In this document: piece after piece, positions 14,146 through 39,147 of the stretch
Layout of the letters: each line of letters begins with the position of its first letter
Numbering within the stretch: the stretch's first letter is position 1
Origin: Minisyncoccota bacterium
GTDB lineage: Bacteria > Patescibacteriota > Minisyncoccia > Phycocordibacterales > SW-6-46-9
Assembly (NCBI GenBank): GCA_040905385.1
Contig: JBBDRP010000002.1
Coordinates: 745,010-784,156, forward strand
Reading direction: 5' to 3'
Length of the DNA stretch: 39,147 bases
Translations under genes and position numbers: made by a program
Notes under the pieces: generated by a model
Databases searched by the model: none
Seen by the model: only the letters and a program-made list of their open reading frames with translations
What the model was told of the DNA's origin: nothing

Positions 14146-16062
14146 CTAGTTTTGTACCTGGCCGTCATCACTACCTTGAGTATCATCGCGACCAGTGGTT
14201 GGAACATTAATATCTCGAATCTGCAACATACTGCCGGTAAATGAGTCGGTTCCGGTAATGGAAGGGTCGGCCAGGAGTCGAACTGTTGATCCAGTCTGAC
14301 GTGAAGTTGGAGTTATCTCAACCTGAATATACACCTCTTCGGCTGGTTTGGTAAATCCAGCTCCGGCTGGGATTGTACCAATATCCCACGTTAATCGACC
14401 GGAAACATTGTTGTAATCAACATTAGCATTTAGAGGTGAAACACCATCACCCATATTTACATAGGCCGGAAGTGCCGCCTGGAAACTAGCATCCGTTATC
14501 TCGTTGGTAGTATTGGAAACAGATAGATGGATCGTATAGGTGGTGGTCTGATCAACCTGTGGTGGAATTGGACCGGTATTTTCAAGCGGACCATCATCAT
14601 GAAGCGTTCGTACTTCCATATCAGCAACAGTTGGTAGTTTTATCGATCGCTCGATATTGGTGGTTACAGTGTCAGGCAAACTACTGTCGCCTGTTGACTG
14701 TGCCTGCATACGGATCGCAATATCCACTGTTGGGTTCTCAACAATACTGGCCAATGATTCGGAGTTTCGTGTACTGAGGCTAAATCTCTGACTACCTTCA
14801 TTGTCTGGATTAATGTCTATAAGATTATCATTTGTACGTGAATTCCAGATAATCGTACTATCACCGGAACGAACAATGCCATCACGTGATGACAATGTAT
14901 CCATATCGATACCAGCACCGGAAAATGTGGCGATGATCTCTCCACCACGAACCGTTGAATCCAAATTACTCCGCCAGTTAATCTGCCCATTAATATCAAC
15001 AATATTACCAGACCGATTCTCATCGGTTTCTATATCAAGACCAACATTAATAAAGGCTTCACGAAGATTGACCACGATGTCCTGCGAAGCAAATAGCGTA
15101 CCTATCGCAGTATTATCATTGGAACGAATGGTGCCAACATCAAACCGAAAAGCCTGCTGATCGGAGGCACTCACATTAGAAAATCGTCCATCAACCGTGA
15201 TATCAATCTCCTCTCCCGGCTCGATATCGCCCAGCTGCCAGATGTAATCTCGATAATCAGGAGTTGGATCGATTTCTTCAGGTACAAATCCAAACGGATA
15301 ATCAATCACCAGAATAACATCATCCAGATTACGAGATGCATTCGAAGTAACGGTTATTTCCATCTCGAACAACTCGTTCAGGCTGGCTTCAGTAGGGCTA
15401 GAAATGTCAAGAGATATTGGTGCTTCAGAAATTTCTATCTCTCCGGTATTGGTGGCCAGAAAGATAGCATTTGAGTCCTGAACTTTATACTCGAGCTGAA
15501 CTGAAATTTCGTTTACGTCACCACGCTCTCCGAAAAGTGTCGCTTTGGTACGGATCTCAGCCTGACCATTAGCCGGAATAGTACCGATTTCTTCACGCTG
15601 CTGCCGTAAATCCTGGCCAGTATTTTCCGGCTCTCGCGTTCCGTCTGGGTAAACAATTACCAGCTCAGCTGAGTGTAACGCAACCTTGTTCTCATTTTTG
15701 ATATTAATATCAAATGTAGCCGTATCACCAGCACTGACACTACTAGGTGCATTAATCTCAATCACGACATTATCCGGAGAAATATTACTATCAGTAAAAC
15801 CAATTGTGTACGCCGCAAAAGCAAAGGCAGCGATAAAGAATATAGAAGCAAAAATCAGTAATTTATTTAAAAAAGACATCGATTCTTTCTGGGATTCTGG
15901 TTCTTGTGACGGTTCCTCATCGTGCTGCCAGCCAGTTGGTATATCATTATCGCCAGAACCACCATATGACAGCTGGTTTCTGGATGTGTTAAAGTCAGCC
16001 GGATTCTGTGAATCAAGACGGCGACGTAAACGATCTATTTTGCTTTCAGAGGACTGGCTCAT
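14146..16062 (-). CDS. Large membrane-anchored extracytoplasmic protein, unknown function
   Basis: 638 aa with a cytoplasmic N-terminus, one TM helix (LLIFASIFFIAAFAFAAYTIGF), then a long beta-rich T/N/D/I-rich region with repeated ...I.V.N.. patterns. Confidence 0.6.
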   Translation of the reverse strand: MSQSSESKIDRLRRRLDSQNPADFNTSRNQLSYGGSGDNDIPTGWQHDEEPSQEPESQKESMSFLNKLLIFASIFFIAAFAFAAYTIGFTDSNISPDNVVIEINAPSSVSAGDTATFDINIKNENKVALHSAELVIVYPDGTREPENTGQDLRQQREEIGTIPANGQAEIRTKATLFGERGDVNEISVQLEYKVQDSNAIFLATNTGEIEISEAPISLDISSPTEASLNELFEMEITVTSNASRNLDDVILVIDYPFGFVPEEIDPTPDYRDYIWQLGDIEPGEEIDITVDGRFSNVSASDQQAFRFDVGTIRSNDNTAIGTLFASQDIVVNLREAFINVGLDIETDENRSGNIVDINGQINWRSNLDSTVRGGEIIATFSGAGIDMDTLSSRDGIVRSGDSTIIWNSRTNDNLIDINPDNEGSQRFSLSTRNSESLASIVENPTVDIAIRMQAQSTGDSSLPDTVTTNIERSIKLPTVADMEVRTLHDDGPLENTGPIPPQVDQTTTYTIHLSVSNTTNEITDASFQAALPAYVNMGDGVSPLNANVDYNNVSGRLTWDIGTIPAGAGFTKPAEEVYIQVEITPTSRQTGSTVRLLADPSITGTDSFTGSMLQIRDINVPTTGRDDTQGSDDGQVQN

Positions 16063-16683: not shown

Positions 16684-19600
16684 TTACAGTATCTTCGCCG
16701 TAAAGAAGAAGCCGTGCTCGGCGACATCATCACCATCATCTACATCTGTAAAGGAGATCTCTGCTACGGTGGCGGTATCGGTGATGTCATCAGTGAAGGC
16801 TTCCAGAAGCTCTCGGCCGGTCGCGTCGGTCTCGACCCCAAGCATAATTTCGGCGGCTGGATCAAGATCGGCCTGCTTGCGCAGCCGCTGGACGGTGCGG
16901 ATAAACTCGCGTACTACCCCTTTTCTCTTCAGCTCATCGGTGAGATCGGTATCGAGTACAGCCGGCTCGTCAATTTCCGTATCAAAATGGATTTCCTCAA
17001 CATTCACCTCATCAGCAAGGATTTCCAGAAGCTCATCCTTACCCGCCAGGCGGTCATCTCGTAGCGTTAGCTTCGCCAGCGGCTGACGGACCTTCAGCTC
17101 GGCCTGGCTACGGCGATCATGAGCGTGCGACACGGCTTCCCGAAGAACCCGCATATCGGCCAGTAACGTCTCAGTACCTTCGTGGTTACCATCAGCAGTC
17201 GGCCAGTCGGTCAGATGAACGCTTTCAACACTGCCGTCGGAAACATCGCGGTATATCTCCTCAGCAAGGAACGGCATAAATGGCGCCAGGACCTTGGACA
17301 CCTCCCGTAAAACATGCAGCGTTACATTAATTGCCTGGTCGCGATCGGCACCATCCTCACCGCGAATACGATCACGAGATCGACGAACATACCACGTAGA
17401 AAGGTCATCAATAAATTTCACAATTGGTTTGGTGGCCTTATCAATCTGGTAACTTCCTAAGCCGGCCGTCACATCGCCGATAAGCTGCCTAAGACAGGCC
17501 ATTATCCAGCGGTCCAGAACATTCTCAACCTGCACCTCTTTTGTGCGGGCGGTCTCGCGCTCCTCGCTGGTGGTATACATCTCGATAAATGAAAATGTAT
17601 TGGTAAGACGGTACATCACTTTCTTGACCACCTCATCTACCTCATCAGTAGAAAGGCTTACATTCTCTCCGCGGACAAGTGGAGAGTTTACGAGGAAGAA
17701 ACGAAGAGCATCAGCGCCTTGGTTGTTGAGAATGTCGGTTACAGGCGGGTAATTTCCTTTTGATTTACTCATCTTTTGCCCATCCTCTGCCATCACCAGG
17801 CCGTTTACGATCACATTTTCATACGGAGACTTTCCAAACAGCCCAACACCAAGAACCAGTGATGAATAGAACCAGCCTCGTGTCTGATCGAGACCTTCAG
17901 AAATAAAGTTGGCCGGGTAGCCCTTGCCTTCATCTGGTGAAAAGTCATCATTTTCAAACGGATAATGCTTGGAGGCGTATGACATCGATCCGGATTCAAA
18001 CCAGCAGTCAAAGACACTATCAATTCGCTGCATTTCTTTGCCGTTCTCTTCCCAGGTGACTTCATCAATGTATGGTCGATGAAAATCAAGCTCAAAGTCT
18101 CCGTTGTGGGGATACGGCCAAAAATCCAACTTTAAAATCGAGCCAGTATCCATATCACCTATGGTTCGTCGTCGCGTTATAATTTCGTCATTTGGAATTA
18201 ATTCAGATGTCCACTGCATAATGCGCAATGGTAATCCGTGACTAATAATCAGAATATTCTTATCTTGATAACTCTCATTAATATCAAACAAGGCTGACAG
18301 CATGCGAGTCCTAATATCTGTGTATGTCTCTCCTCCTTCAACCGTTTCCGAGAATGGCTCCAGATCATCCATGACTTCATGCCACTTTTCAACTTTTTTA
18401 CCCTCAAGTATTCCGGCCTTGTTCTCAGTAAATCGCTCATCGATGATTATTTGTTCAGTAGAAAGATCAAGGCTTTCTTTAACCATTTCTGCGGTCTCTT
18501 TCGTACGAAGCATTGGTGAAACAAAAACAAAGTCGATATCAATATCCTCTAGTTTAGTAATCGCTTCGCGAACCTCCTCTTTTCCTTTATTAGTTAAGTG
18601 ATGTTCGTTGCTCGGCAGTGAGCTCATAATTCGTTTGATATTATGATCCGCCTCGCCATGACGCATAGCAAAGAATTTGTTTGAGCTTTTGGTTTTCTCT
18701 TTAAGATCAGCAAGCGAGCTAATCACCTCGACTACTTCTCCATCGGCTGACTTCCAGACCGGGAGCGGTGCACCCCAGAATCGCTCGCGGGAAATCGCCC
18801 AGTCGCGGGCACCTTCCAGCCAGTTACCAAATCGATTAGAGCCGATAGCTTTAGGGACCCAGCCAACATTCTCATTGGCAGCCACTAGGTCGTCCTTGAA
18901 GGAGCTGACCTCTACGAACCAGGAAGTAGTTGCATAGTTTAGAAGCGGCGTCTCGCAGCGCCAACAAAGCGGATACTGGTGATGAAGATTCTCTTTATTA
19001 AAGAGAAGGTCCTTATCCAACAGATACCGCAAAATTTCAATGTCGGCGGAGAGATGCTCTTCATTGCCTTCATCACGCGGCTTTACCTTCATGCCAGCAA
19101 AGTCCGTAACGTCGGCGGTAAATTCCCCCGATTCTGTTACGTGATGAACGATAGGAATACCGTGATCTTCGGCCAAGGAGAGGTCATCGGCACCAAAGGC
19201 GGGCGCAATGTGGACTAGGCCGGTTCCTTCCTCGAGCGTAACGAAGTCGGCGCCGTACACCTGCCATGCCCCGGCCTTGTTCTCGATTTCCTTGTCCTGA
19301 AAGTAGCTAAATGGCGATTGATATATTTTTCCAATAAGTTTTTCTCCAGAGAAATTTTCGGAGTCTATATCATCTTGCATGCTTAAGAATAAAAGCTTAT
19401 GAAGTTTTCCTTCATTTTTTTGAGCCGCTTCTTTAGAAAAAATATAACCACCTGATTCAAAATCTACATCTAAATCATATTTCTTAGGATCGAAATTTTC
19501 AGGAATCACAACTTTTACATACTCTAATTCTGGATTCACCGCTACCGCCATGTTGCCTGGTAGCGTCCATGGTGTCGTGGTCCAGATCAAGAGACTGGTG

Positions 19601-20292
19601 TCCGGCGCATCAGCCAGCGGTAGCTTTACCGTCACGGCAATGTCCTTCTGTTCGACGTAGCCTTGGTTAACCTCAAAATTCGATAGTGGTGTCTCACAGC
19701 GCGGACAGACATGCATCGACTTGAAGCCCTCATAAACGAGATCTTTTTTGTCTAACTCACTAAAAGCCCACCAGATGCTCTCGGTGTAGCTGGAATCCAT
19801 GGTGCGGTAGTCATTGTCCATATCCACCCAGCGACCAGTACGGGGAATAATCCGCTTCCAGTCTTCTGCATACTGCAGTACAAAATCCTTGGCGACCTCA
19901 TTAAACTTTTCAATTCCGTACTCAGAAATATCTTTTTTCGTCTCTAACCCCAGATGATCCTCAACCTGATTTTCCAGTGGAAGGCCATGTGTATCCCAGC
20001 CCCACTGACGCTCGACGTGGTAGCCCTGCATGGTCTTGAAGCGAGGAATGACATCCTTGATGGTACCGGGAAGAATGTGTCCGTAATGCGGCAGTCCAGT
20101 GGCAAATGGCGGACCATCATAGAAGACAAACTCACCCTTTGGGGATTCTTTGGCAAGCGTCTTCTCGAAGATATTATTATCGCGCCAGAATTCTAAGGTT
20201 ACTTCCTCACGCTTAGCAATATCTGACTTCTTCCCTTGCCCTTCCGTAGCTTTAGCGGAGGAGGGTGATTTCTCCTGGTTTTGGTCACTCAT
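16684..20292 (-). CDS. ileS: Isoleucyl-tRNA synthetase (type 2-like) with an internal histidine-phosphatase domain insertion
   Basis: PPFATGLPHYGH, TTTPWTLPGN, RDWAISRERFWGAPLPVW, HRPYIDEV, WFESGSMSYA and KMSKSKGN. Residues ~537-730 form a foreign RHGE...SHG domain. Confidence 0.95.
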   Translation of the reverse strand: MSDQNQEKSPSSAKATEGQGKKSDIAKREEVTLEFWRDNNIFEKTLAKESPKGEFVFYDGPPFATGLPHYGHILPGTIKDVIPRFKTMQGYHVERQWGWDTHGLPLENQVEDHLGLETKKDISEYGIEKFNEVAKDFVLQYAEDWKRIIPRTGRWVDMDNDYRTMDSSYTESIWWAFSELDKKDLVYEGFKSMHVCPRCETPLSNFEVNQGYVEQKDIAVTVKLPLADAPDTSLLIWTTTPWTLPGNMAVAVNPELEYVKVVIPENFDPKKYDLDVDFESGGYIFSKEAAQKNEGKLHKLLFLSMQDDIDSENFSGEKLIGKIYQSPFSYFQDKEIENKAGAWQVYGADFVTLEEGTGLVHIAPAFGADDLSLAEDHGIPIVHHVTESGEFTADVTDFAGMKVKPRDEGNEEHLSADIEILRYLLDKDLLFNKENLHHQYPLCWRCETPLLNYATTSWFVEVSSFKDDLVAANENVGWVPKAIGSNRFGNWLEGARDWAISRERFWGAPLPVWKSADGEVVEVISSLADLKEKTKSSNKFFAMRHGEADHNIKRIMSSLPSNEHHLTNKGKEEVREAITKLEDIDIDFVFVSPMLRTKETAEMVKESLDLSTEQIIIDERFTENKAGILEGKKVEKWHEVMDDLEPFSETVEGGETYTDIRTRMLSALFDINESYQDKNILIISHGLPLRIMQWTSELIPNDEIITRRRTIGDMDTGSILKLDFWPYPHNGDFELDFHRPYIDEVTWEENGKEMQRIDSVFDCWFESGSMSYASKHYPFENDDFSPDEGKGYPANFISEGLDQTRGWFYSSLVLGVGLFGKSPYENVIVNGLVMAEDGQKMSKSKGNYPPVTDILNNQGADALRFFLVNSPLVRGENVSLSTDEVDEVVKKVMYRLTNTFSFIEMYTTSEERETARTKEVQVENVLDRWIMACLRQLIGDVTAGLGSYQIDKATKPIVKFIDDLSTWYVRRSRDRIRGEDGADRDQAINVTLHVLREVSKVLAPFMPFLAEEIYRDVSDGSVESVHLTDWPTADGNHEGTETLLADMRVLREAVSHAHDRRSQAELKVRQPLAKLTLRDDRLAGKDELLEILADEVNVEEIHFDTEIDEPAVLDTDLTDELKRKGVVREFIRTVQRLRKQADLDPAAEIMLGVETDATGRELLEAFTDDITDTATVAEISFTDVDDGDDVAEHGFFFTAKIL

Positions 20293-20710: not shown

Positions 20711-21163
20711 ATGGATGAAGAGACTGATGATACCTCTGCCAAAAAAACGACCGACACGACACTGCGTGCAGCTTATGTAGCCCTTTGGCTAGAAATATTA
20801 TCTGCTGAAGAAAAAGATATATATTTTGGCCATGGACAGATAAGGATTCTAGAGACAAATTTACGCAAACAACCGATTGATCTGCCAGGTATTTGTGGTG
20901 ATAATGACGAATACAACGAATTACTTGATGTTGTAGATACTTGGTTTAATTCAAACTTTGTAGAAACATTTAAGTTATTTAATAAAAATGAAATAAGTAA
21001 TATTGGTCAATTGCGAGATTATATCCAGGAAGCTGTTGGAATAGGTCAGGATGAAGAATCACATGTAGTAGATAATTGGCTAATAAACGAGTTACTGAAC
21101 TCAGACCAAATTGAAAAGGACATTAACCAACAGATTACAGAGTGGAAAAATAAGAAAAAATAA
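20711..21163 (+). CDS. Acidic hypothetical protein
   Basis: 150-aa ORF with an extended -10 (TGTATAAT) about 40 nt upstream. No family recognised. Confidence 0.5.
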   Translation: MDEETDDTSAKKTTDTTLRAAYVALWLEILSAEEKDIYFGHGQIRILETNLRKQPIDLPGICGDNDEYNELLDVVDTWFNSNFVETFKLFNKNEISNIGQLRDYIQEAVGIGQDEESHVVDNWLINELLNSDQIEKDINQQITEWKNKKK

Positions 21164-21216: not shown

Positions 21217-22935
21217 CTACATCTCCTCTGGGGCGGTGATTCCTAAAAGGTGAAGACCGTTTTTCAACGTCTGGGCCGTGGTCTGCACCAGGGCAAGTCG
21301 ATACGGCGTCTCGTCTGCCGCCACCACAATCTGCGTATTGCCATAAAACGTATTAAAAATCCGCGCCAGATCATGCAGATAGGTAGCAATCAGATGCGGG
21401 GCGTACTGGTCGGCGGCGCGAGCAACGACGCTGGGGAATCTGTACAGCAGGCGCTCAATATCAGTCGTCTCTTCTGGCCAGATGGTGCCCGCATCCGGCT
21501 GGAAGCCTTCCTCTGCCGCCTTCTCAAGAAGGGATCGGCAACGAGCGTACGTGTACTGCAAATATGGACCAGAGTTACCCTCAAAGGACAGAGCCTGCTC
21601 GGTATCAAAGGCCACGTTCTTGGCCGCATCACCTTTGAGAATGGCGTAGCGAACCGCCGCCTGAGCGATATTCTCGGCCACTGCCTCCCTTCCGTCGGTA
21701 TCCAGCCGATCGGCGATCTTGGCCTTGGCGCGCTCTTTTACTGTATCCAGAAGTTCTTCTGCCGACAGTACGTCACCGGTTCGCGACGACATCTTGCCGT
21801 CCTTCAGCTGCAGCATCCCGTGGCCGATGTGGGTGGTCCCTTCAGCCAGGTCAGGAATCGCCTCCCCAGCCGCGGCCAGCACCACCTTGAAATACTCATT
21901 CTGCTCGTTGGCGGTGAAGATTACCGCCTCGTCGTAGGCGTACTCCTGGTACTTGAGCTGCATCAAGCCGAGATCCTTGGCCTCGTACGTCGGGATCCCG
22001 GCTGAGTTGATGAACACACGGGTATGCAGCCCCGCTTCCTCGTCACCGCGGTAGATAACGGCGCCATCATTTTCCTCAAAAATTCCTTCATCAAGACCTT
22101 GCTGGACAATATCCTTCCCGATGGGGGCAGTTTCAGACTCGAAAAACTGCCAGTCGAGCTGGACACCGAGGCGGTCGTACAACGACTGATAACTCTCGAG
22201 ACTCCACTGGCAGGCGTTTTTGTATACTTCGCTTACCTCTGCATTTTTACCGCTATAAATCTGCTCATTTATCACCTCAATCTTTTCTCGGGATGATTCA
22301 TTCTGCGTAAAGGCTGTATCACCAGCAGCATACATGCCACCCAGATAATTAGCCTTTTGGGCTGGTGTTTCTCGGTCGGCAGGAAATGGATCGTCGCTGG
22401 CCATAATCGCCCAGACAGCCTTCGCGATATGCATCCCGACATCACCCTGATAACTATCCCGCCGGACCTCGGCTCCCTGCGACTGGTAGATGTTCGCGAT
22501 AGCGTTGCCAATGACGTGGCTCATCAAATGCCCAACATGAAACTCCTTAAGAAGATTCTGGGTCGTGTATTCAAAAATAGTTTTTCGGCCGGCGCTGCCG
22601 TCACTGGTGCCAAAATCATCACCGCGCTCCTGGATCTGCTTAACAGACTCGGCAAAGAAGACGGATGAGAGGTGGAAGTTGATAAAGCCGGGGCCGGCTA
22701 CGGTGACCTCCGTAACCTCTTCAGGAAGACCCCCTTCTAGCGCAGCGACAATCTTCTCGGCTAGCTCACGAGGGTTCGTGCTCAGCTCACCGGCAAGCCG
22801 GAGTGCAATATTGCACGCATAATCACCATGAGACAGCTCGGCCGGGTGCTCCAGCTCGATCTGCTCTTCGGCGACCTCAATCTCGAGACTATCCAAGACC
22901 GCTTTTATGGAATTTTTTATCGTATCGGTAATCAT
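21217..22935 (-). CDS. argS: Arginyl-tRNA synthetase
   Basis: 572 aa. ...PNPTGxLHVGH-like TTQNLLKEFHVGHLMSHVIG, a MSSRTG (KMSKS-equivalent) motif, and the C-terminal anticodon-binding domain ending in ...EM. Confidence 0.9.
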   Translation of the reverse strand: MITDTIKNSIKAVLDSLEIEVAEEQIELEHPAELSHGDYACNIALRLAGELSTNPRELAEKIVAALEGGLPEEVTEVTVAGPGFINFHLSSVFFAESVKQIQERGDDFGTSDGSAGRKTIFEYTTQNLLKEFHVGHLMSHVIGNAIANIYQSQGAEVRRDSYQGDVGMHIAKAVWAIMASDDPFPADRETPAQKANYLGGMYAAGDTAFTQNESSREKIEVINEQIYSGKNAEVSEVYKNACQWSLESYQSLYDRLGVQLDWQFFESETAPIGKDIVQQGLDEGIFEENDGAVIYRGDEEAGLHTRVFINSAGIPTYEAKDLGLMQLKYQEYAYDEAVIFTANEQNEYFKVVLAAAGEAIPDLAEGTTHIGHGMLQLKDGKMSSRTGDVLSAEELLDTVKERAKAKIADRLDTDGREAVAENIAQAAVRYAILKGDAAKNVAFDTEQALSFEGNSGPYLQYTYARCRSLLEKAAEEGFQPDAGTIWPEETTDIERLLYRFPSVVARAADQYAPHLIATYLHDLARIFNTFYGNTQIVVAADETPYRLALVQTTAQTLKNGLHLLGITAPEEM

Positions 22936-37646: not shown

Positions 37647-37764
37647 CTTAGTTCTGGCGACGGCCTACTCTCGCCCTAAGGACTACCATCGGCGCTGGGA
37701 GACTTAACTTCTGAGTTCGGCATGGGATCAGGTGTGACCCTCCCGCCAAGTCACCAGAACAAAG
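37647..37764 (-). rRNA. rrf: 5S rRNA
   Basis: The reverse complement reads GTTCTGGTGAC...CCTGATCCCATGCCGAACTCAGAAGTTAAG...GCCGATGGTAG...GAGAGTAGG..GTCGCCAGAAC. It is flanked by a GTTGAAG/CTTCAAC processing stem. Ends are approximate. Confidence 0.93.

Positions 37765-37937: not shown

Positions 37938-39147
<1,210 letters not shown>

What the first reader, a model, noticed from the sequence alone, without database searches (positions are those of the whole stretch)
18103..18684. Isoleucyl-tRNA synthetase with a complete histidine-phosphatase (PGAM-like) domain inserted in frame
Seen in the sequence:
- The 1202-aa ileS ORF has all the class I landmarks (HYGH, WAISRERFWGAPLPVW, HRPYIDEV, WFESGSMSYA, KMSKS).
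- Residues ~537-730 (hand count) read KFFAMRHGEADHNIKR...FVFVSPMLRTKETA...ERFTENKAGILEGK...NILIISHGLPLRIMQW...GSILKLDF.
- The frame is continuous, and there are no intein-like termini.
- The insert DNA looks clearly more A+T-rich than the flanking ileS sequence (by eye).

Established knowledge:
- RHGE-x3-N, together with a second SHG histidine about 140 residues later, is the catalytic signature of the histidine phosphatase (phosphoglycerate-mutase-like) superfamily.
- In the IleRS sequences I recall, the P.P.W and HRPY motifs are only a few tens of residues apart.

Inference: an acquired, probably autonomous phosphatase module sits on a surface loop of the catalytic core. I do not know of a described aaRS-phosphatase fusion of this kind. 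Possible roles (hydrolysis of a phosphorylated nucleotide, tRNA end or inhibitor) are pure speculation.
Basis: partly seen in the sequence, partly recalled or inferred. Interest (0 to 1): 0.8.

Follow-up and report, generated by a model that had tools for sequence, protein, structure and literature searches.

The report
Phosphatase domain built into isoleucyl-tRNA synthetase
The gene for the enzyme that loads isoleucine onto tRNA carries a complete, apparently active phosphatase domain inside its catalytic core. This is the normal state in a large group of ultra-small (Patescibacteria/CPR) bacteria, derives from a gene that sits next to ileS in their relatives, and I found no paper describing it.

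Summary
The 1202-aa ileS ORF (16684-20292, minus strand) carries a ~200-aa histidine-phosphatase (HP, PF00300, E=7e-28) domain at aa ~535-734. It replaces a 4-residue loop of the CP3 subdomain.

- **Not an artefact.** All 120 best full-length homologues (48-75% identical, Paceibacteria) and at least 103 GTDB species have it at the same site.
- **Likely active.** The six catalytic residues (R544, H545, N551, R596, E623, H685) are invariant in 120/120, although the insert averages only 42% identity. AlphaFold gives pLDDT 95 alone and ordered junctions in the full protein.
- **Origin.** In other Patescibacteria the same HP subfamily is a separate ~190-aa gene wedged between argS and an insert-less ileS (41 of 46 loci).
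- **Other partners.** HPs of this subfamily also sit in ValRS and are fused to ArgRS, TsaC and ATP sulfurylase. An unrelated HP lineage entered IleRS at a second site.
- **Exchange.** Near relatives of the window carry different HP cassettes (body and insert trees conflict with 94-100% bootstrap). This may account for the AT-rich composition.

The substrate is unknown. Every well-supported partner is an adenylate-forming, PPi-releasing enzyme, so pyrophosphate hydrolysis is my leading guess (~30%). I rate it a new variant of a known kind.

The parts
16684..20292 (-). ileS, type-2 (eukaryote-like) isoleucyl-tRNA synthetase, 1202 aa, hosting the insert
   Evidence: ORF. TIGR00392 scores 843 bits, above its cut-off. 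HYGH, KMSKS, TTTPWT and GTGxVH motifs are present. Best PDB relatives are eukaryotic and IleRS2 structures.
18091..18690 (-). Whole inserted segment, aa 535-734, relative to insert-less IleRS
   Evidence: Alignment to human IARS1 9w01_B: query 534 to residue 492 and query 735 to residue 497. Coordinates.
18190..18669 (-). His_Phos_1 (PF00300) core, aa 542-701
   Evidence: Pfam E=7.3e-28. AF2 pLDDT 94.8, pTM 0.90. Foldseek hits PspA 4IJ6, PhoE 1H2E, Rv3214 and CobC at E~1e-12.
18658..18663 (-). R544-H545 of the RHG motif (phosphate-binding Arg and nucleophilic His)
   Evidence: Invariant in 120/120 homologues and 71/71 GTDB genes.
18640..18642 (-). N551 (phosphate pocket)
   Evidence: 120/120 and 70/71.
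18505..18507 (-). R596 (second phosphate-pocket Arg, SPxxR motif)
   Evidence: 120/120 and 71/71.
18424..18426 (-). E623 (general acid/base)
   Evidence: 120/120. 69/71 plus two Asp.
18238..18240 (-). H685 (second catalytic His, SHG)
   Evidence: 120/120 and 71/71.
18679..18720 (-). N-terminal junction SSLADLKEKTKSSN (CP3 helix leading into the HP; N538 is 98% or more conserved)
   Evidence: Alignments. Junction pLDDT 96-97 in the full-length model.
18058..18120 (-). C-terminal junction WPYPHNGDFELDFHRPYIDEV (conserved PxPHNxxYELDLHRPYID motif returning to CP3)
   Evidence: F, P, H, N, E, D, H, R, P, I and D are invariant or nearly so. This motif was the search pattern that recovered at least 103 genomes.
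21217..22935 (-). argS, upstream neighbour. In lineages with a free-standing HP the order is argS-HP-ileS.
   Evidence: Pfam. Synteny.

Best explanation
**Shown**
- This is the housekeeping type-2 IleRS of a Paceibacteria (Patescibacteria/CPR) bacterium.
- Its CP3 subdomain carries a complete histidine-phosphatase (branch 1, PhoE/PspA/CobC-like) domain, with confidently modelled linkers at both ends.
- The module is old and is kept under purifying selection on its catalytic residues.

**Inferred with good support**
- It descends from a ~190-aa HP gene that, in other Patescibacteria, sits between argS and ileS with overlapping or near-abutting stop and start codons.
- It is a catalytically active phosphohydrolase that works as a dedicated partner of adenylate-forming enzymes, not as an isoleucine-specific device. 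HPs of the same subfamily are also built into ValRS and fused to ArgRS, TsaC/Sua5 and ATP sulfurylase.

**Inference only (about 30%)**
- The product these enzymes share is pyrophosphate. My preferred mechanism is that His545 attacks the terminal phosphate of PPi, or of another small phospho-product leaving the ATP site.
- Glu623 would protonate the leaving group and the phospho-histidine would then be hydrolysed. This would make amino-acid activation irreversible next to the synthetase.

**Shown, local history**
- The HP cassette evolves about twice as fast as the IleRS body.
- It has been replaced by recombination between lineages close to this genome. This may explain why it is compositionally distinct here, though lower GC in the insert is also a family-wide trend.
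For: **Domain identity and fold**
- Pfam and NCBIfam hits.
- AF2 of the insert alone: pLDDT 94.8, pTM 0.90.
- Foldseek to PspA, PhoE, Rv3214 and CobC with TM 0.7-0.77.
- Full-length model: pLDDT 92.9, pTM 0.85, junction blocks 93-97.

**Not an artefact, and widespread**
- All 120 best full-length hits carry PF00300.
- At least 103 GTDB species have it, including complete chromosomes CP060229 and OY760935.

**Catalytic residues**
- Invariant in 120/120 and in about 70/71, while mean insert identity is 0.42 against 0.625 for the body.

**Site**
- The insert lies inside CP3. C. albicans CP3 is residues 473-534 (PMC7191050), and window aa 533 aligns to Ca residue 498.

**Operon precursor**
- Free-standing HP P0284 lies between argS and a 962-aa insert-less ileS. 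P0285 and P0290 show the same arrangement.
- Of 46 free-standing HP loci with downstream sequence, 41 have ileS starting within 150 nt (median gap about 2 nt). In 39 of 47, argS ends just upstream.
- The 26 embedded loci have argS directly followed by ileS(HP).
- Embedded and free HPs are one subfamily: 0.41 identity to each other, 0.28 to other HPs.

**Convergence and other partners**
- L081 (genetic code 25) has an HP only 26% identical, inserted between the catalytic and anticodon-binding domains.
- ValRS with HP: P0332 and P0256.
- ArgRS-HP as a single ORF: L104.
- TsaC-HP (P0313) and HP-ATP sulfurylase (P0295).
- Two to four tandem HPs in some synthetases.

**Cassette exchange**
- Bimodal insert-versus-body identity.
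- Sharp drops in nucleotide identity at the insert edges.
- Conflicting trees with 94-100% bootstrap.

**Precedents**
- An HP-fold enzyme with PPase activity (PMC7926622).
- An appended catalytic domain serving its synthetase (M. penetrans MetRS, PMC7694997).
Against: - No activity was measured and the substrate is not shown.
- The only HP-fold pyrophosphatase I found is a weak branch-2 enzyme.
- A tethered PPase gains little kinetically unless the two active sites face each other.
- I could not test whether these genomes lack a normal pyrophosphatase.
- The partner list (IleRS, ValRS, ArgRS, TsaC) fits a tRNA-linked role almost as well. Only the single ATP-sulfurylase fusion separates the two ideas, and there the HP could instead be a PAP(S) 3'-phosphatase.
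- Free-standing HPs are strongly basic (net +11.6 per 100 aa against +1.6 for the neighbouring IleRS, 32/32 loci). Embedded ones are not. That pattern hints at RNA or protein docking.
- The cap region that usually defines HP substrate specificity is poorly conserved.
Confidence: 0.6

Rival explanations
1. tRNA-directed phosphatase. The HP removes a 3'-terminal (or 2',3'-cyclic-derived, or 2') phosphate from tRNA held by the synthetase. This would heal ends that cannot be charged, for example after toxin or RNase action. The synthetase supplies the tRNA binding.
For: - The partners IleRS, ValRS, ArgRS and TsaC all belong to tRNA charging or modification.
- Free-standing HPs are strongly basic relative to their neighbours, and this is lost once the HP is embedded in a tRNA-binding enzyme.
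- One homologue (P0329) adds a P-loop kinase-like domain next to the HP. A kinase plus a phosphatase is the classic end-healing pair. Its PDB hits are weak: APS kinase, shikimate kinase, Pnkp1.
Against: - I know of no HP-family enzyme that acts on RNA ends (own knowledge).
- The ATP-sulfurylase fusion has no tRNA link.
- A repair enzyme restricted to tRNA-Ile and tRNA-Val is hard to rationalise.
- The window's own insert is acidic (net -13).
- The kinase-like hits have E of 0.02-0.06, which is not significant.
Confidence: 0.15
2. Hitch-hiking housekeeping enzyme. The HP is an ordinary small-molecule phosphatase or mutase (a sugar-phosphate, phosphoserine, ribazole-type or phosphoglycerate enzyme). 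Its link to ileS would reflect only co-expression in a compact genome, followed by a neutral fusion into a loop that tolerates insertions.
For: - The closest characterised relatives are small-molecule phosphatases: PhoE, PspA, CobC, HFP, GpgP.
- CP3 and the CP1 loop of these IleRSs also accept unrelated domains: GNAT, a P-loop domain and an IS200-like transposase domain. These loops therefore tolerate insertions.
- The cap region is variable.
Against: - A second, unrelated HP lineage entered IleRS at another site.
- The same subfamily entered ValRS.
- The tight argS-HP-ileS arrangement holds in 41/46 loci across HPs only about 49% identical.
- Junction residues are conserved and confidently modelled, which suggests a fixed orientation.
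- No NCBIfam equivalog cut-off is met: dPGM_arch 85.7 against 225, cobC 66.7 against 163, PspA 56.7 against 350.
Confidence: 0.17
3. Phosphoprotein phosphatase or counter-measure module. The HP removes a phosphate placed on the synthetase (for example on the KMSKS serine by HipA-like kinases) or neutralises another phosphorylated effector. Together with the GNAT and kinase-like inserts, it would belong to an exchangeable set of protective cassettes.
For: - The cassette evolves fast and is swapped between lineages while its active site stays fixed.
- Some synthetases carry two to four tandem copies.
- GNAT (RimL/Acetyltransf_3-like) and P-loop domains sit in the same enzymes.
- HP-family members that act on phospho-proteins exist: SixA, PGAM5, Sts-1 (own knowledge).
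- Parcubacteria carry MccH-like resistance genes against aminoacyl-nucleotide antibiotics (PMC7157772).
Against: - No hit to any PADLOC defence model.
- The SixA cut-off is not met: 45 against 74.5.
- No kinase toxin for IleRS is known (own knowledge).
- Synonymous sites are saturated, so positive selection could not be tested.
- Faster evolution is equally explained by weaker constraint.
Confidence: 0.07
4. Artefact or selfish element: a chimeric assembly, an intein, or a catalytically dead structural spacer.
For: - Composition differs from the flanks.
- The insert ends in a conserved His-Asn.
Against: - The same architecture appears in hundreds of independent assemblies, including closed chromosomes.
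- There is no Hint domain. The +1 residue is Gly here and variable elsewhere, and the N-terminal residue is not a nucleophile.
- All six catalytic residues are invariant.
Confidence: 0.01

Closest known systems
Histidine phosphatase superfamily, branch 1: small broad-specificity phosphatases such as PhoE/YhfR (1EBB, 1H2E), PspA phosphoserine phosphatase (4IJ5/4IJ6), CobC and Rv3214
   Same: - RHG-N, R, E and H catalytic set.
- About 200-aa alpha/beta fold (TM 0.7-0.77).
- E...G..EG and GGE...R motifs typical of the phosphatase members rather than the mutase members.
   Different: - Only 18-23% identical in the Foldseek structural alignments.
- Below every curated equivalog cut-off.
- Has RHGEAxSN...SS(W)PE in place of the usual RHGxTxWN...QG..D.PL.
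- Occurs inside, or directly next to, class Ia synthetase genes.
Synthetases with appended catalytic domains: M. penetrans MetRS with an N-terminal aminotransferase (PMC7694997), and NCBIfam NF040702 'isoleucine--tRNA ligase, N-acetyltransferase domain-containing'
   Same: A reduced-genome bacterium adds a second enzyme to an essential class I synthetase. An IleRS carrying a foreign enzymatic domain is already a curated category.
   Different: - Here the passenger is a phosphatase.
- It is inserted internally in CP3 rather than appended at an end.
- The window protein scores 304 bits against NF040702, whose cut-off is 1999.
- No supply-of-substrate logic is apparent for isoleucine.
ATP sulfurylase-pyrophosphatase fusions of some eukaryotes (own knowledge), and soluble inorganic pyrophosphatases
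   Same: The proposed logic is the same: a PPi-removing activity attached to an adenylate-forming enzyme. The same HP subfamily is fused to an ATP sulfurylase (P0295).
   Different: No sequence or fold relation to family I, family II or membrane pyrophosphatases. PPi hydrolysis by this domain is untested.
CP3 subdomain of IleRS (C. albicans residues 473-534; Zn-binding in T. thermophilus; three-helix in S. aureus)
   Same: The insertion site lies within this known, structurally variable peripheral subdomain. Some homologues keep the CxxC...CxC knuckle on either side of the HP (P0142).
   Different: Described CP3 variants in the cited paper are short; the one with stated bounds spans about 60 residues and none has catalytic motifs. 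Here a 200-aa enzyme is nested in it.

Membership tests
Histidine phosphatase superfamily branch 1 (Pfam PF00300) | Profile match above the curated gathering score | tested here: met
   98.0 bits against a cut-off of 21.7, E=7.3e-28, aa 542-701.
Histidine phosphatase superfamily branch 1 (Pfam PF00300) | Catalytic core: RHG with a nucleophilic His, pocket Asn, second Arg, acid/base Glu, second His | tested here: met
   R544, H545, N551, R596, E623 and H685 are present and invariant in 120/120 homologues.
Histidine phosphatase superfamily branch 1 (Pfam PF00300) | Alpha/beta fold of the superfamily | tested here: met
   AF2 pLDDT 94.8. Foldseek to PspA, PhoE, Rv3214, TIGAR and dPGMs with probability 1.00 and TM 0.6-0.77.
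Histidine phosphatase superfamily branch 1 (Pfam PF00300) | Phosphohydrolase or mutase activity through a phospho-histidine intermediate | not testable with these tools
   Needs an enzyme assay.
Cofactor-dependent phosphoglycerate mutase (dPGM) | Curated equivalog score | tested here: not met
   For the insert alone: NF038349 dPGM_arch 85.7 against 225; TIGR01258 28.8 against 81.7.
CobC / PspA / SixA / GpmB equivalogs | Curated equivalog scores | tested here: not met
   TIGR03162 66.7 against 162.9; NF045917 56.7 against 350; TIGR00249 45.3 against 74.5; NF002901 55.1 against 261.
Isoleucyl-tRNA synthetase (TIGR00392) | Equivalog score, plus the HIGH and KMSKS signatures and the CP1 editing motifs | tested here: met
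   842.9 bits against 621.4. HYGH 69-72 and KMSKS 840-844. TTTPWT and GTGLVHIAPAFG are present and conserved in the family.
IleRS with GNAT domain (NF040702) | Curated score / presence of a GNAT domain | tested here: not met
   304.5 bits against 1999, and no GNAT domain in the window protein. Homologue P0142 has a GNAT at aa 285-415 but also scores only 321.
Intein | N-terminal Cys/Ser, C-terminal His-Asn followed by Cys/Ser/Thr, and a Hint fold | tested here: not met
   A terminal HN is present, but the +1 residue is Gly (variable in homologues). The first residues are KFF. There is no Hint or LAGLIDADG Pfam hit.
Inorganic pyrophosphatases (families I, II, membrane) | Sequence membership | tested here: not met
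   No pyrophosphatase family is among the Pfam hits of the protein. The proposal is 'may work like one', not 'is one'.

The most novel reading that the evidence does not exclude
The HP, like the GNAT and kinase-like inserts seen in sister enzymes, is an exchangeable protective cassette. It would sit beside the active site of class Ia synthetases and strip a phosphate that an attacker has placed on the tRNA 3' end or on the synthetase itself, restoring charging. Cassette swapping and tandem multiplication would then be traces of an arms race in these epibiotic bacteria.
Probability: 0.1. Interest if true: 0.9.

Novelty: new variant of a known kind. Interest (0 to 1): 0.7.

Why it matters
- **A second active site in an essential enzyme.** Aminoacyl-tRNA synthetases are among the most conserved enzymes known. 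Here a whole bacterial class has built a second, apparently active, catalytic centre into the catalytic core of an essential one and kept it.
- **Several lines of genomic evidence for a real partnership.** These are an operon stage, an embedded stage, a convergent second insertion and parallel fusions to other adenylate-forming enzymes. I found no paper describing it.
- **It is directly testable.** One point mutant (H545A) and a handful of substrates would show whether synthetase chemistry in CPR bacteria is coupled to phosphate or pyrophosphate removal, or to tRNA or enzyme repair.
- **Annotation.** Hundreds of database entries now called 'class I tRNA ligase family protein' could be named properly.
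- **A model for domain exchange.** IleRS of CPR bacteria accepts and swaps whole domains at defined loops, which makes it a natural system for studying domain insertion.

Tried and rejected
- **Chimeric assembly.** Rejected. The architecture recurs in hundreds of independent assemblies.
- **Intein.** Rejected on termini and the absence of a Hint domain.
- **dPGM, CobC, PspA or SixA identity.** Rejected. All are below curated cut-offs.
- **AT-richness as proof of recent foreign origin.** Not accepted on its own. GC3 of the insert is below the body in 57 of 71 family members.
- **Selection versus recombination by dN/dS.** Inconclusive. Synonymous sites are saturated even in the body (dS of 1.2 or more). 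I relied on tree incongruence instead.
- **Defence-system libraries.** PADLOC gave nothing for the HP or GNAT, and only marginal hits (E 7e-4, 2e-3) for the P-loop insert.
- **P-loop insert of P0329.** PDB hits were too weak to name (E 0.02-0.06).
- **Literature.** Seven full-text searches found no paper on an IleRS or aaRS histidine-phosphatase fusion. A 2026 IleRS domain-evolution preprint does not mention phosphatase or CPR.
- **3-D placement of the HP relative to the ATP site or tRNA.** Not possible, because model coordinates are not exposed.
- **Free-standing relatives by word-index search.** This gave few hits. The exhaustive representative search was needed.
- **Some free-standing HPs (P0245, P0025) are not next to ileS**. 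They belong to more distant groups.
Full report
**1.
The minus-strand ORF 16684-20292 encodes 1202 aa. HYGH is at 69-72, WAISRERFWG at 498-507, HRPYIDEV at 738-745, WFESGS at 764-769 and KMSKS at 840-844. Coordinates 18103-18684 are exactly aa 537-730. R544-H545-G-E...N551 and S684-H685-G give the RHGE-x3-N signature, with a second His 140 residues later.

Pfam finds His_Phos_1 (E=7.3e-28, aa 542-701) splitting tRNA-synt_1 into two stretches, followed by Anticodon_1 and DUF5915. NCBIfam places the host above the ileS equivalog cut-off (843 against 621 bits). Its next best matches are the eukaryote-like MupA and MupB enzymes.

Against human IARS1, residue 534 aligns to 492 and residue 735 to 497. 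About 200 aa therefore replace a 4-residue loop. The insert has GC 0.40 against 0.49 for the rest of the gene, and GC3 0.38 against 0.52-0.55.

**2. It is a folded, catalytically complete domain nested in CP3.**
AlphaFold2 on aa 525-751 with a 142-sequence alignment gives pLDDT 94.8 and pTM 0.90. Foldseek finds the small branch-1 phosphatases at E~1e-12 and TM up to 0.77: PspA 4IJ6, PhoE 1H2E, Rv3214, a riboflavin-pathway HFP, TIGAR, GpgP and CobC. By sequence the closest solved relative is PhoE (E=3e-11). No curated equivalog cut-off is met for dPGM, CobC, PspA, SixA or GpmB.

The full-length model (aa 21-1202) has pLDDT 92.9 and pTM 0.85. The junction blocks score 93-97, so the linkers are confidently modelled rather than floppy.

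The C. albicans IleRS paper defines CP3 as residues 473-534 and describes it as structurally variable among IleRSs (PMC7191050). Window aa 533 aligns to Ca residue 498, so the HP sits inside CP3. Some homologues keep a CxxC...CxC knuckle on either side of the HP (P0142).

**3. It is the rule in a large clade, not a chimera.**
All 120 best full-length database hits carry PF00300 together with the IleRS domains. They are 48-75% identical and 1143-1325 aa long. Their names include Paceibacterota, Kaiserbacteria and Campbellbacteria, among them 2016 RIFCSP genomes present in UniRef and nr. They are called only 'class I tRNA ligase family protein', 'isoleucyl-tRNA synthetase' or 'hypothetical protein'.

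Nearly all are Patescibacteria, and they include closed chromosomes.

In 120 homologues R544, H545, N551, R596, E623 and H685 are invariant. In 71 full-length GTDB genes they are conserved in 69-71. Mean pairwise identity is 0.42 in the insert against 0.625 in the body. The junction motifs N538 and PxPHNxxYELDLHRPYID are also conserved. Seven full-text literature searches and one targeted read found no description of this architecture.

**4. Where it came from.**
An exhaustive HMMER search with the insert alone returned 88 IleRS-embedded copies among the 146 newly listed of the top 150 representatives. It also returned 52 proteins that are HP only, 48 of which start with Met. These share the subfamily signature RHGxAxSN...SSWPE...LT.

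One of them, P0284, lies between argS and an insert-less 962-aa ileS on the same strand, 9 bp upstream of ileS, and recO follows downstream. This is the same synteny as in the window. P0285 and P0290 show the same arrangement.

A metagenome scan with a profile of free-standing HPs gave 80 loci:
- 53 have a free-standing HP, 26 have an embedded HP, and one (L104) has ArgRS and HP in a single ORF.
- Of 46 free-standing loci with at least 300 nt downstream, 41 have the ileS start within 150 nt. Gaps run from -10 to +126 nt, with a median of about 2.
- In 39 of 47, argS ends within 150 nt upstream.
- In embedded loci argS is followed directly by ileS(HP).

Embedded and free HPs are as similar to each other (0.41) as embedded ones are among themselves (0.40). 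Both are far from other HPs (0.28). The simplest history is that the neighbouring gene was relocated into CP3.

**5. The association is convergent and extends beyond IleRS.**
- L081 comes from an organism that reads UGA as a sense codon (nine in-frame TGA codons in ileS; translated here with table 25). Its 1261-aa IleRS has no insert in CP3. It has a catalytically complete HP (E=9e-35) between the catalytic and anticodon-binding domains. That HP is only 26% identical to the main subfamily.
- P0332 and P0256 are ValRSs (valS 581 and 411 bits) with HPs of the subfamily at the equivalent post-'WGHRIPVW' site. P0256 has four copies, but it lies on a 2x-coverage contig with an in-frame stop in the fourth.
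- P0268, P0319 and P0330 are IleRSs with at least two HPs (Pfam stretch counts; RHG motif counts).
- P0313 is TsaC/YrdC fused to an HP. P0295 is an HP followed by PUA_2 and ATP sulfurylase.
- P0375 pairs an HP with a sub-threshold AlkB-like region and a signal-peptide-like N-terminus. I give it no weight.

**6. Local history of the cassette.**
For homologue pairs with body identity of 0.80-0.90, the median insert identity is 0.70-0.76. A second mode sits at the saturation floor of 0.35-0.39. Examples are P0123 and P0126 (body 0.91, insert 0.36) and the window and P0124 (0.87 and 0.35).

Codon-aligned comparison with four syntenic relatives (L086-L089) shows nucleotide identity of mostly 0.7-0.93 across most of the body, lower in the C-terminal domains. 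It falls to 0.44-0.52 over aa 541-737 against P0124, with similar lows against P0126 and a much smaller drop against P0122 and P0123. It falls again over aa 261-320 against all four.

Bootstrapped NJ trees conflict strongly:
- Body: (P0123, P0126) 100% and (window, P0122, P0124) 82%.
- Insert: (window, P0122, P0123, P0125) 99%, (P0124, P0126, P0129, P0138) 98% and (P0124, P0138) 94%.

The HP cassette has therefore been exchanged between lineages. The body's synonymous sites are already saturated (dS of 1.2 or more), so selection could not be separated from relaxed constraint. Lower GC3 in the insert is also a family trend (57 of 71, mean -0.05). The window's -0.17 is at the strong end of that trend.

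**7. What it does.**
- *Shown:* the catalytic machinery is maintained, the domain has confidently modelled linkers, and its gene is tied to class Ia synthetase genes.
- *Inferred:* it is an active phosphohydrolase whose role is linked to its partner enzymes.
- *The shared feature:* every well-supported partner (IleRS, ValRS, ArgRS, TsaC, ATP sulfurylase) attacks the alpha-phosphate of ATP to make an adenylate and releases PPi. I therefore rank local PPi hydrolysis, or hydrolysis of another small phospho-product, first at about 30%. An HP-fold enzyme with PPase activity exists, though it is weak and belongs to branch 2 (PMC7926622).
- *tRNA-end phosphatase, about 15%:* four of the five partners fit it. 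Free-standing HPs are markedly basic (+11.6 per 100 aa against +1.6 for the adjacent IleRS, 32/32 loci), while embedded ones are not.
- *Hitch-hiking housekeeping phosphatase, about 17%:* supported by the small-molecule relatives and by loops that tolerate insertions. It is weakened by the convergent insertions and the conserved operon.
- *Phosphoprotein or counter-measure role, about 7%:* suggested only by the fast, swappable, sometimes multiplied cassette and by the GNAT and P-loop inserts in sister enzymes. PADLOC gave nothing for the HP itself.

**8. Verdict.**
The 'acquired here' reading needs replacing by an old, clade-wide module derived from the gene next door and exchanged between lineages. 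It is a new variant of a known kind, namely a synthetase with an added catalytic domain. Precedents are M. penetrans MetRS-aminotransferase (PMC7694997) and NCBIfam's GNAT-bearing IleRS. The function is untested.

Noticed in passing
window 19327-19512 (-), ileS aa 261-322: A second compositional island lies inside ileS, in a variable loop of the CP1 editing region: GC 0.30 and GC3 0.18 against 0.55 for the body. It is unalignable with close relatives (nucleotide identity 0.44-0.59), and the window protein is 30-36 aa longer than its relatives overall (the excess was not localised). The same loop hosts a GNAT domain in P0142 and an IS200-like Y1 transposase domain in P0258.
   Followed up: partly
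whole window, e.g. 16684-20292, 21217-22935, 14146-16062: The encoded proteins are strongly acidic. The median pI of 18 ORFs is 4.86, and the IleRS body has a net charge of -76. This suggests a salt-adapted or otherwise unusual proteome for a CPR bacterium.
   Followed up: partly
window 20711-21163 (+): A 150-aa ORF with no Pfam hit, AT-rich (GC about 0.30-0.40) and acidic, lies on the opposite strand between argS and ileS. This is where the free-standing HP gene lies in other lineages. Relatives have small opposite-strand ORFs (59-141 aa) at the same place.
   Followed up: no
L081:2799-6584: The ileS and neighbouring genes are broken by in-frame TGA under the standard bacterial code but read through as a single ORF when translated with table 25 (nine TGA codons in ileS). 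This IleRS carries an unrelated HP lineage at a different site, between the catalytic and anticodon-binding domains.
   Followed up: yes
L104:3381-5570: ArgRS and the HP are read as one 729-aa ORF: the ArgRS C-terminus ...GISSPQQM runs straight into KRIELNNKYYIMRHG. This is either a real ArgRS-HP fusion or a lost stop codon.
   Followed up: partly
P0329 aa 735-935; P0258 aa 935-1063: There is a second insertion hot spot just after WFESGSMPYA. P0329 carries a P-loop (AAA_18) kinase-like domain there, with weak resemblance to APS kinase, shikimate kinase and Pnkp1. P0258 carries a GNAT at the same place.
   Followed up: partly
P0332, P0256 (L176:366-3851): Valyl-tRNA synthetases carry one to four HP domains of the same subfamily. 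The four-copy case is on a 2x-coverage contig with an in-frame TAA in the last copy.
   Followed up: partly
P0313, P0295: The same HP subfamily is fused to TsaC/YrdC (threonylcarbamoyl-AMP synthase) and to PUA_2 plus ATP sulfurylase. Both partners are adenylate-forming, PPi-releasing enzymes.
   Followed up: partly
window 14146-16062 (-): A 638-aa very acidic ORF (pI 4.1) with no Pfam family in the window copy; syntenic homologues show only faint CLIPPER/NPCBM_assoc hits. It has one hydrophobic N-terminal segment. It is conserved in synteny after recO in all close relatives and is probably a surface protein.
   Followed up: no
window 37652-37758 and 37939-39147 (-): A 5S rRNA and the 3' 900 nt of a 23S rRNA, cut by the window end. 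These could be used to place the organism.
   Followed up: no
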